A stretch of DNA of 887 nucleotides from assembly GCF_003334305.1 (NCBI RefSeq), contig NZ_QOWS01000067.1. One strand, written 5' to 3'. Each line of letters starts with the position of its first letter. Positions within the stretch are counted from its first letter, which is position 1. The notes under the pieces were generated by a model. It ran no database searches and was not told where the DNA came from. It saw only the letters and a program-made list of their open reading frames with translations. Positions 70 through 887 of this stretch are shown here, piece by piece. The position numbers and the translations under genes are program-made. The stretch is from Escherichia coli (GTDB lineage: Bacteria > Pseudomonadota > Gammaproteobacteria > Enterobacterales > Enterobacteriaceae).

Positions 70-887
70 CGGCAGCCGGATAAGCTGCTGCAGCTGATGC
101 GGGTTCTCTTCATTCAGCAGGTTGCCCCATTCATCATATTCTGCGCACCACGCTGTTGCCCCTTCCGTGCTGATGAGCGCCAGCGGCAGGCCGCGATGGT
201 CGCAGTGGTACAGGTGGATTTTTCGCGCCGGCGTGTACACCGGGTCCATCTGGTTTTGCATCTGCTCCACGGTCAGGCCGCACGATGCCAGCCAGCGGCG
301 GCTTTCCTCACTCACCCGGTCAGCCAGGATTTCACTTTCCAGCCGGTCGAGCATCTGCACCAGCACCGGCGGGAACACCACACTGCCACCGTCTTCGCCG
401 CCGGACTGCTGAAGCGCATCCGCCAGGCTGCGGCGCTGCGTTCTGGCCAGTTCACCGGTGGCAGTTTCAACTCTGATGAGTGGTGTGAAGCTCCCCGGCT
501 GATAAATCGTCTGGATGCGGCTCCTGTCGTTCTGTATCGTGGTCAGCCGGTCGCCGTCCCAGCCGTACCAGGTCACTTGCGGTTTCCGTGACAGCGACAT
601 CCAGCCCGTCAGGTCCCGTTCACGCCGCCATACCCGTTTTGCCACCCTGCGGCCCAGCGGGTCGTAAAGATAGCGACTTTCGACCAGCGGCTCTTCATAT
701 TGTGTCCGCGTGTAGTGCACCAGCCGGTGCTGACTGTCGTAATGGTACCGGTGAGTCCGCTCATCATCCGTGCGGATAACCCCTTCCGGGATGAGGTCGG
801 TTTTCTCTGTCAGCCTGCCGTGACGGTCATACCGGTAAAGATAGTGCGCGTCACGGGCGATACGGTTATCCGGCCACATGCTGAGGG
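1..887 (-). CDS. Rhs family YD-repeat core protein, internal fragment (C-terminal part of the conserved core; partial at both ends)
   Basis: Seen in sequence: the minus-strand frame with codons at + coordinates 3k+1..3k+3 is open for all 295 codons (first full codon 883-885, last 1-3). Hand translation, N->C: [295 protein letters not shown]. Established knowledge: it contains YD-repeat consensus motifs (YxYDxxGRL-like) and the [12 protein letters not shown] signature that opens the RHS repeat-associated core domain. From memory it closely resembles the E. coli RhsA/B/C-type core, but I cannot assign a paralogue or species, so no gene symbol is given. No start or stop codon of the gene lies in the window. 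Confidence 0.93.
544..843 (-). other. Block of four YD-repeat motifs within the Rhs core (protein-level repeats)
   Basis: Seen in the translation: [11 protein letters not shown] (aa 15-25, nt 811-843), [10 protein letters not shown] (aa 47-56, nt 718-747), [12 protein letters not shown] (aa 72-83, nt 637-672), WYGWDGDRL (aa 106-114, nt 544-570). Spacing between motifs is about 25-34 residues, as expected for RHS/YD beta-hairpin repeats. A further degenerate copy, [14 protein letters not shown], lies at nt 175-216. Confidence 0.8.

What the first reader, a model, noticed from the sequence alone, without database searches (positions are those of the whole stretch)
217..504. About 96-residue stretch without YD motifs between the YD-repeat block and the terminal core domain
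Residues 128-223 ([96 protein letters not shown]) lack the YxYDxxGR pattern. The stretch is rich in Leu/Ala/Glu/Arg/Gln, a helix-favouring composition, unlike the beta-hairpin YD repeats on either side, and includes a Gly/acidic linker ([10 protein letters not shown]). It may be an insertion or part of the plug/cap that closes the Rhs shell. Such elements can differ between Rhs subfamilies and affect toxin encapsulation.
Basis: inference. Interest (0 to 1): 0.3.

Follow-up and report, generated by a model that had tools for sequence, protein, structure and literature searches.

The report
Helical surface insertion in Rhs shell
The flagged stretch is a real, roughly 78-residue insertion predicted to form five helices, sitting in one hairpin loop of the E. 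coli Rhs toxin-container protein at the site where a related solved structure has a smaller helical bump on its outer surface; it is a conserved, clade-specific decoration whose function is not known.

Summary
The window is a minus-strand fragment (295 aa, no stops) of an E. coli RHS element core protein. It is 100% identical to WP_240770953, residues 921-1215. The YD-free stretch is real and lies in the longest YD-free gap of the shell.

[14 protein letters not shown] and RKI belong to conserved shell strands. The true insertion is fragment residues 143-220 (window 226-459).

All six kinds of solved T6SS Rhs shell align on both sides of it but not through it. They have 6-43 residues there.

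The site is exactly that of Tse5 'Helical Region 2' (1031-1062), a resolved helical surface protrusion. It also contains the unmodelled exterior loop of Tse15. It ends about 30 residues before the C-terminal plug.

The E. coli-type insertion is conserved in DUF6531-type Rhs proteins of gamma- and beta-proteobacteria. It is under purifying selection, weaker than on the shell (dN/dS 0.25-0.57 against 0.09-0.33).

Verdict: an exterior, clade-specific helical decoration, not wall, plug or protease. Its function is inferred only. Modest interest.

The parts
484..885 (-). Upstream shell wall: YD-repeat beta-hairpins (fragment residues 1-134, full-length 921-1054)
   Evidence: TIGR01643 and Pfam RHS_repeat matches. 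Predicted as strands with pLDDT about 90. Aligns to Tse5, the S. bongori Rhs and P. protegens RhsA.
460..483 (-). Stalk strand 1, TPLIRVET (fragment 135-142). It is the last conserved shell strand before the insertion.
   Evidence: P135, L136 and R138 are invariant or nearly invariant in 51 sequences. Strand E135-142 in the model. Aligns to '...FVPLLRLE' of Tse5 and '...FTPLARYE' of S. bongori.
226..459 (-). The insertion proper: a predicted five-helix mini-domain (fragment 143-220, full-length 1063-1140)
   Evidence: Left unaligned by every solved Rhs, Tc or teneurin chain. AlphaFold2 helices 143-149, 154-161, 173-187, 193-201 and 206-212, both in context and alone. The same fold appears in AFDB models of E. 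coli and Shigella Rhs. dN/dS 0.25-0.57.
370..402 (-). Variable Gly/acidic linker inside the insertion (fragment 162-172, [11 protein letters not shown])
   Evidence: Lowest pLDDT within the insertion, about 66. A 5-residue indel separates the 79-residue and 74-residue subfamilies.
325..369 (-). Helix 3 (fragment 173-187, [15 protein letters not shown]), carrying the nearly invariant Glu of the L-E-x-E-L motif
   Evidence: E50 of alignment A2 (fragment 183) is conserved in at least 90% of sequences. pLDDT is above 90.
283..309 (-). Helix 4 (fragment 193-201, EESRRWLAS), with the nearly invariant Trp-Leu. The conserved Ser (fragment 192) lies one residue before the helix, just outside these coordinates.
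   Evidence: S59, W65 and L66 of alignment A2 are conserved in at least 90% of sequences. Helix in both models.
202..225 (-). Stalk strand 2, RKIHLYHC (fragment 221-228), where the shell resumes
   Evidence: Strand E221-228. Y226 and C228 are nearly invariant. Aligns to 'RIAFFHTDH' of Tse5 and 'QFTFYHCDQ' of Tse15.
109..219 (-). Pfam 'RHS protein' motif PF03527 (fragment 223-259): the last shell hairpins
   Evidence: Pfam E = 4.7e-16.
4..138 (-). Start of the RHS repeat-associated core domain, which is the C-terminal plug (fragment 250-294). The aspartyl-protease DPxGL motifs lie beyond the window.
   Evidence: TIGR03696 scores 37.8 bits against a cut-off of 32.5, and 83 bits in the full protein at 1170-1247. 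The Tse5 plug, 1092-1168, maps here. DPIGL at 1221 and DPLGL at 1243 in the full protein.

Best explanation
Fragment residues 143-220 form a small helical domain that folds on its own. It has five short amphipathic helices and one flexible Gly/acidic linker. It is inserted into the turn of one beta-hairpin of the Rhs cocoon, two hairpins before the C-terminal plug.

It most likely projects from the outer surface of the shell near the plug pole. It occupies the position of Tse5 'Helical Region 2' and of the exterior loop of Tse15. It is not part of the wall, the plug or the aspartyl protease.

Selection keeps its fold: the hydrophobic core, the helix caps and one Glu are conserved, while the surface varies. 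The most likely role is a clade-specific exterior contact or buttress surface. It could dock a partner during loading or delivery, or brace the last shell turn against the plug.

Shown: it is an insertion, its site, its conservation and the purifying selection on it. Predicted: the helical fold. Inferred by positional homology: the exterior location. Inferred only: the contact or buttress function.
For: - Insertion relative to solved shells. The flanks align and the middle does not. Loop length at this site: S. bongori about 6, P. protegens RhsA about 8, Advenella about 15, Tse5 about 36, Tse15 43, E. coli about 83.
- Fold. AlphaFold2 on 340 residues with a 51-sequence alignment gives mean pLDDT 82.7, with the helices at 83-93. 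The insertion with its stalk alone gives pLDDT 85.5 and the same helices. AFDB models of E. coli and Shigella Rhs superpose at TM 0.92-0.96, including models of 1024-1165 residues.
- Site. Chain 8cp6_B is Tse5 residues 48-1168. The unaligned gap at chain positions 985-1014 is therefore native 1032-1061. The Tse5 authors describe 1031-1062 as 'Helical Region 2', a resolved, helical, solvent-exposed surface protrusion absent from Rhs1 and RhsA. In Tse15 the same loop spans 1243-1285 and contains residues 1256-1267, reported as a solvent-exposed exterior loop without density.
- Not the plug. The Tse5 plug (1092-1168) and TIGR03696 both start at fragment residue about 250.
- Conservation. Every representative carrying both anchors has 59-102 residues at the site, down to 36% identity. 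These include Salmonella, Serratia and Paracidovorax. The full-length members examined all start with the same DUF6531-type N-terminus.
- Selection. dN/dS is 0.25-0.57 in all 15 pairs; flanks give 0.09-0.33 in the 14 pairs where it could be estimated. For window against rhsD the bootstrap 95% interval is 0.16-0.59, never reaching 1.
Against: - No coordinates could be inspected, so the exterior location rests on positional homology with two solved structures, not on a model of this protein.
- No partner, phenotype or experiment bears on function.
- Sequence homology to Tse5 Helical Region 2 is not demonstrable (hhalign probability 0.9%).
- The insertion evolves about 1.1 to 4.6 times faster than its flanks, depending on the pair.
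- The conserved positions look structural rather than like a conserved binding face.
- A few database sequences carry in-frame deletions inside it.
- These last three points also fit a tolerated passenger.
Confidence: 0.55

Rival explanations
1. Tolerated passenger. The loop is a permissive exterior site that accumulates lineage-specific helix-rich sequence. The E. coli-type domain is kept only because a folded, soluble insert is less harmful than a disordered one, and it does nothing specific.
For: - The site holds at least three or four sequence-unrelated insert types: 35-54 residues like Helical Region 2, 65-80 residues as in E. coli, 90-102 residues, and a 'YDIDRDPLW' type. Many proteins have only tight turns there.
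- hhalign finds no link between the types.
- dN/dS is higher than in the flanks.
- There is an indel in the linker and there are rare internal in-frame deletions.
Against: - dN/dS stays well below 1 in all 15 pairs.
- The same five-helix pattern, with conserved core residues, persists from E. coli to Paracidovorax while flank identity falls to 36-45%.
- Both models are confident.
Confidence: 0.25
2. Membrane-contact element. This is the role the Tse5 authors propose for Helical Region 2: the helices help the cocoon dock on the target-cell membrane before toxin release.
For: It occupies the same loop as Tse5 Helical Region 2, which contacted the bilayer in the authors' simulation. The helices are amphipathic, with hydrophobic moment 0.43-0.54.
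Against: - Net charge is -5 (12 acidic against 7 basic residues), and mean helix hydrophobicity is at most 0.17. That is a poor match for anionic bacterial membranes.
- Toxin tips attached to cores of this family vary widely (DUF4329, Ntox34 and others). They are not specifically pore formers.
Confidence: 0.1
3. Interior element or part of the plug or cap. The helices would line the lumen or close the shell, and so affect encapsulation directly.
For: [quoted passage not shown]
Against: - The homologous loop is a surface protrusion in Tse5 and an exterior loop in Tse15.
- The plug maps to fragment residue 250 and beyond.
- From general knowledge of protein volumes, an 80-residue bundle would take a large share of a lumen of about 25,000-35,000 cubic angstroms. 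That lumen must also hold a toxin of about 150 residues.
Confidence: 0.05

Closest known systems
Tse5 'Helical Region 2' (P. aeruginosa Tse5 residues 1031-1062, PDB 8CP6; PMC10684867)
   Same: It sits in exactly the same hairpin loop, between '...FVPLLRLE' and 'RIAFFHTDH'. It has helical content. It is absent from Rhs1 and RhsA. Tse5 is the closest solved relative of the window (E = 4e-25), and its N-terminal plug is also DUF6531.
   Different: It has 32-35 residues against about 78, and one or two helices against five. Sequence homology is not detectable (hhalign probability 0.9%). The Tse5 authors tie it to membrane binding by a pore-forming toxin and report it absent from homologues with enzymatic toxins. 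The E. coli family carries varied toxin tips, yet has a larger insert at this site.
Exterior loop of A. baumannii Tse15 (loop 1243-1285, with 1256-1267 unmodelled; PDB 8UXT/8UY4; PMC11461821)
   Same: Same loop by alignment of both anchors. The authors describe it as solvent-exposed and exterior.
   Different: It has 43 residues, is partly disordered, has no described fold, and shows no sequence match to the insertion.
Tight turn at residues 1312-1315 of the S. bongori PAAR-Rhs core (PDB 8QJB/C/D; bioRxiv 10.1101/2024.02.26.582050)
   Same: Same position. The authors single this loop out as one whose length varies between Rhs cores.
   Different: It has only 4-6 residues. The authors call the T6SS Rhs outer surface 'very smooth', lacking protrusions and decorations. 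That description would not hold for the E. coli-type clade.
[quoted passage not shown]
   Same: It is also a helical module attached to the outside of an Rhs cocoon and specific to a clade.
   Different: It is a 12-helix, roughly 320-residue N-terminal domain that binds VgrG and is cleaved off. It is not an insert in a hairpin loop.

Membership tests
RHS element core protein (NCBIfam NF041261) / T6SS-associated Rhs cocoon | Whole-protein score above the curated cut-off | tested here: met
   The full-length protein carrying the window scores 2632.8 bits against a cut-off of 2000, in one stretch covering residues 1-1247. The window fragment alone scores 628.6 bits over model positions 935-1229.
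RHS element core protein (NCBIfam NF041261) / T6SS-associated Rhs cocoon | YD repeats and the RHS repeat-associated core with two DPxGL aspartyl-protease motifs | tested here: met
   TIGR01643 and TIGR03696 both score above their cut-offs. DPIGL at 1221 and DPLGL at 1243, both outside the window.
RHS element core protein (NCBIfam NF041261) / T6SS-associated Rhs cocoon | Genetic link to a type VI secretion system | tested here: inconclusive
   The 52%-identical homologue P0225, which has the same insertion, lies next to TssE/F/G and ImpA_N genes. P0203 carries a weak VgrG (Phage_GPD) match. The locus in strain A7 shows no T6SS gene within 8 kb.
Surface helical protrusion of the Tse5 'Helical Region 2' type | Located in the hairpin loop between the '...PLLR.E' strand and the 'xIxxYHxDH' strand | tested here: met
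   Both anchors align. The gap in chain 8cp6_B at positions 985-1014 is native 1032-1061; Helical Region 2 is 1031-1062.
Surface helical protrusion of the Tse5 'Helical Region 2' type | Helical secondary structure | tested here: met
   By prediction only: five helices at pLDDT 83-93 in two independent runs, and the same fold in AFDB models.
Surface helical protrusion of the Tse5 'Helical Region 2' type | Lies on the outside of the shell, exposed to solvent | not testable with these tools
   Model coordinates are not returned. The location is inferred from Tse5 and Tse15, where the same loop is exterior.
Surface helical protrusion of the Tse5 'Helical Region 2' type | Sequence homology to Helical Region 2 | tested here: inconclusive
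   hhalign pairs '[16 protein letters not shown]' with 'EGQPLPAQCVPALGEA', but with probability 0.9% and E = 0.064. Both profiles are short and shallow.
Surface helical protrusion of the Tse5 'Helical Region 2' type | Contributes to interfacial membrane binding | not tested
   Only composition is available: net charge -5 and low hydrophobicity, which argues against it.
C-terminal plug / RHS repeat-associated core domain (TIGR03696) | Residues fall within the plug or core-domain model | tested here: not met
   TIGR03696 starts at fragment residue 250 (full-length 1170), and the insertion ends at 220. The Tse5 plug, 1092-1168, maps to fragment residue 250 and beyond.
YD-repeat beta-hairpin of the shell wall | YDxxGR-type motif and strand-turn-strand structure | tested here: not met
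No motif in residues 143-220. The segment is predicted helical.

The most novel reading that the evidence does not exclude
The five-helix domain is a functional exterior 'handle' specific to the large DUF6531-type enterobacterial and beta-proteobacterial Rhs clade. It would dock a partner (VgrG, an adaptor or chaperone, or a target-cell component) or gate opening of the nearby C-terminal plug. Delivery by classical E. coli-type Rhs proteins would then depend on a module that none of the solved Rhs structures contains.
Probability: 0.2. Interest if true: 0.55.

Novelty: new variant of a known kind. Interest (0 to 1): 0.3.

Why it matters
How Rhs cocoons are loaded onto the T6SS spike, and how they open to release their toxin, are open questions. 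All solved T6SS Rhs shells lack this domain. One group describes the outside of such shells as smooth and undecorated. Another interprets the small helical bump at this same loop in Tse5 as a specialisation for a pore-forming toxin, absent from homologues with enzymatic toxins.

The classical E. coli Rhs family and its Salmonella, Serratia and Paracidovorax relatives carry a larger, conserved helical domain at that loop, although their toxin tips vary widely. This suggests the loop is a general hot spot for exterior decoration. It also gives a cleanly bounded module (full-length 1063-1140) that can be deleted or swapped to test for a role in loading, stability or release. If it turns out to be a passenger, the practical gain is a permissive surface site for engineering Rhs containers.

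Tried and rejected
- Sequence search of the insertion alone against PDB chains gave no hit at E up to 10. The profile of the insertion plus stalk (A2) against PDB gave only chance hits, E of 0.3 or worse.
- Foldseek against AFDB50: all 50 listed hits (of 339 with E at or below 0.001) are E. coli or Shigella Rhs, so no non-Rhs context was seen.
- The insertion searched against the 5.8-billion-protein set found only E. coli and Shigella Rhs fragments.
- Possible counterpart in TccC3. Two searches aligned TcdB2-TccC3 partly into the insertion. Targeted queries showed no match to the insertion itself, so I rejected this as alignment run-on.
- I first suspected that the unresolved Tse5 segment 873-909 was this loop. 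Renumbering the chain showed it lies upstream of the window, and that the loop at this site is resolved.
- Homology between the E. coli-type insert and the 90-102-residue inserts: hhalign probability 0.4%. Against Helical Region 2-type inserts: 0.9%. Neither is demonstrated.
- Base composition: the insertion is 66% GC and the flanks 59-60%, all typical of the GC-rich Rhs core. There is no sign of foreign DNA.
- Plus-strand ORFs such as 25-591 are antisense to a gene that matches a curated family end to end, and nothing supports them.
- Literature searches found no description of this domain in E. coli-type Rhs proteins. The library is incomplete, so this is weak evidence of novelty.

Full report
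**What the window is**

The only long open frame is frame 2 of the reverse complement: 295 codons without a stop. The DNA is 100% identical to part of an annotated 'RHS element core protein' (WP_240770953, 1394 aa) of E. coli strain A7. It is at least 95% identical to rhsA/B/C-type genes in 3876 of 5426 complete E. coli genomes. Fragment residue 1 is full-length residue 921.

The full protein passes the curated NCBIfam model RHS_core (2632.8 bits, cut-off 2000) in a single stretch covering 1-1247. It has an N-terminal DUF6531 domain. The two DPxGL protease motifs lie at 1221 and 1243, just beyond the window.

**Checking the observation**

The quoted 96 residues are fragment 128-223, which is window 217-504 on the minus strand. 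The stretch has no YD-type motif. It lies in the longest YD-free gap of the protein: 176 residues between YD at 994 and 1170, with the next largest gaps at 128-130. It is poor in Tyr (1.3% against 8.3% in the flanks) and richer in helix-forming residues.

The limits are too generous. [14 protein letters not shown] and RKI are conserved shell strands. They contain invariant Y128, P130 and P135, along with nearly invariant S132, F133, L136 and R138, and they align to all solved shells.

**It is an insertion**

Against PDB sequences, fragment residues 3-143 and 219-293 align to solved T6SS Rhs shells as two separate stretches, and the middle aligns to nothing. A profile of 51 family members gives the same two-stretch pattern for all the solved T6SS Rhs proteins. 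Anchoring on '...PL(L/I/A)R' and 'x(I/F)xxYHxDH' gives these loop lengths:

| Protein | Residues at the site |
|---|---|
| S. bongori Rhs | about 6 |
| P. protegens RhsA | about 8 |
| Advenella VgrG-Rhs | about 15 |
| Tse5 | about 36 |
| Tse15 | 43 |
| This protein | about 83 |

The S. bongori authors themselves name this turn (1312-1315) as a loop whose length varies between Rhs cores.

**What it looks like**

AlphaFold2 was run on fragment residues 1-340 with a 51-sequence alignment. It gave mean pLDDT 82.7 and pTM 0.71. It predicts strands 135-142 and 221-228 enclosing five helices: 143-149, 154-161, 173-187, 193-201 and 206-212. The helices score 83-93 and the Gly/acidic linker 162-172 about 66. 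The beta part of the model matches Tse5, RhsA and the other Rhs shells.

The insertion with its two stalk strands, modelled alone, gives the same helices at pLDDT 85.5. The fold therefore appears to be autonomous. AFDB models of E. coli and Shigella Rhs proteins superpose on it at TM 0.92-0.96, including models of 1024-1165 residues.

**Where it sits**

I could not read model coordinates, so location rests on positional homology. Chain 8cp6_B is Tse5 residues 48-1168. The unaligned gap at chain positions 985-1014 is therefore native 1032-1061. [quoted passage not shown] One of them, 1031-1062, is 'Helical Region 2': resolved in the map, helical and solvent-exposed. That is this loop.

In Tse15 the loop spans 1243-1285. 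It contains residues 1256-1267, the only shell residues the authors could not model, which they describe as 'a solvent exposed exterior loop'.

The Tse5 C-terminal plug (1092-1168) and TIGR03696 both begin at fragment residue about 250, which is 30 residues and two hairpins after the insertion ends. The domain is therefore near the plug pole but is not part of the plug, and it is most likely outside.

**Distribution**

Among the best 150 representatives at 50% identity, every protein with both anchors has 59-102 residues at the site, down to 36% identity. This list is biased, because the query contained the insertion. Most inserts fall into two length classes:
- A 65-80-residue class, which includes E. 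coli. Named members include Salmonella enterica, Serratia silvae and Paracidovorax. Conserved positions are the L of SLA, the E of LExEL, the S of LSxxS, and WL.
- A 90-102-residue class. It shows no detectable homology to the first class (hhalign probability 0.4%).

The full-length members examined share the same PAAR-like/DUF6531 N-terminus. One of them lies beside TssE/F/G genes.

A second sample was seeded with Tse5 flanks without any insert. Of 47 proteins, 32 had 2-16 residues at the site, 14 had 34-54, and one had an E. coli-type insert of 73. Tse5's own loop, recovered from P0375, is QACEPDPPELLQLRQAFAAEGQPLPAQCVPALGEA. It and the E. coli insert share a helix-Gly-hydrophobic-x-hydrophobic-Pro-helix look, but hhalign gives only 0.9% probability. 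Common origin is therefore unproven.

**Selection**

I made codon alignments of the window with rhsD and four more distant genes. dN/dS for the insertion is 0.25-0.57 in all 15 pairs. For the flanks it is 0.09-0.33 in the 14 pairs where it could be estimated. For window against rhsD, the bootstrap 95% interval is 0.16-0.59 for the insertion and 0.05-0.14 for the flanks, and no replicate reached 1. dS is high (0.5-2.3), so the values are rough. The direction is consistent: the insertion is constrained, but less so than the shell.

**Interpretation**

The best reading is a clade-specific, self-folding helical decoration on the outside of the cocoon next to the C-terminal plug. Its conserved positions look like core and helix-cap residues, and its surface varies. 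Selection therefore seems to act mainly on the fold.

I favour a role as an exterior contact or buttress surface (confidence 0.55 for the whole statement, with the functional part weakest). The main rival is a tolerated passenger at a permissive loop (0.25).

A membrane-contact role like that proposed for Tse5 Helical Region 2 is possible but fits poorly. The domain has net charge -5 and low hydrophobicity. The family also carries varied toxin tips.

**Novelty and interest**

The sequence is ordinary: it is part of every classical E. coli Rhs core and of a curated family model. A helical protrusion at this loop has already been described for Tse5. What appears undescribed in the papers I could search is the larger, conserved five-helix version in the E. 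coli-type clade.

Its existence also sits awkwardly with two published generalisations. One says T6SS Rhs surfaces are smooth and undecorated. The other says the helical region at this site is absent from homologues with enzymatic toxins.

I rate it a new variant of a known kind, with interest 0.3.

Noticed in passing
window 226-459 (fragment 143-220), as seen in proteins P0080, P0093, P0003 and P0043: A few database E. coli Rhs sequences have in-frame deletions inside the insertion. P0080 lacks about 43 residues, removing helices 2-3. P0093 and P0003 join the upstream part directly to 'RWLASCGL' or 'LASCGL'. They could be natural deletion variants, recombination products or assembly artefacts. 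All are small clusters.
   Followed up: no
loop between the two anchor strands in P0430, P0435 and P0436: A further insert type of 35-46 residues at the same loop shares '...YDIDRDPLW...'. It resembles neither the Helical Region 2-type nor the E. coli-type insert. The loop looks like a general hot spot for unrelated insertions.
   Followed up: partly
AFDB hits A0ABD4ZHQ7 and A0A077ZH48: Entries labelled Gardnerella vaginalis and the nematode Trichuris trichiura are 99% identical to the E. coli Rhs segment. They are almost certainly E. coli contamination in those assemblies.
   Followed up: no
L001 5243-10513 (E. coli A7, NZ_CP028767.1 209012-214282): The rhs gene that matches the window 100% lies between rpmE and yiiX/metJ. 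It is followed by a frameshifted 'dsORF-f3' and a frameshifted IS1 transposase. No T6SS gene lies within 8 kb.
   Followed up: no
P0203 (L007 276-3548) and P0085: Some proteins with the same insertion carry a weak Phage_GPD (VgrG) match upstream of the Rhs repeats. The insert therefore also occurs in apparent VgrG-Rhs fusions, not only in DUF6531-type proteins.
   Followed up: no
P0001 (509 aa): This protein matches the 295-residue query in four stretches, with 1065 bits. That is far more than a single copy can give and suggests an internal duplication or a mis-assembly of Rhs core sequence.
   Followed up: no
window 25-591, plus strand: A 188-codon ORF runs antisense to the rhs frame. Nothing supports it: the minus-strand frame matches a curated family end to end. 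Long antisense ORFs are expected in GC-rich coding DNA.
   Followed up: partly
window 226-459 against the rest of the window: The insertion is somewhat more GC-rich than its flanks: 66% against 59-60%, and GC3 of 0.80 against 0.71-0.73.
   Followed up: no
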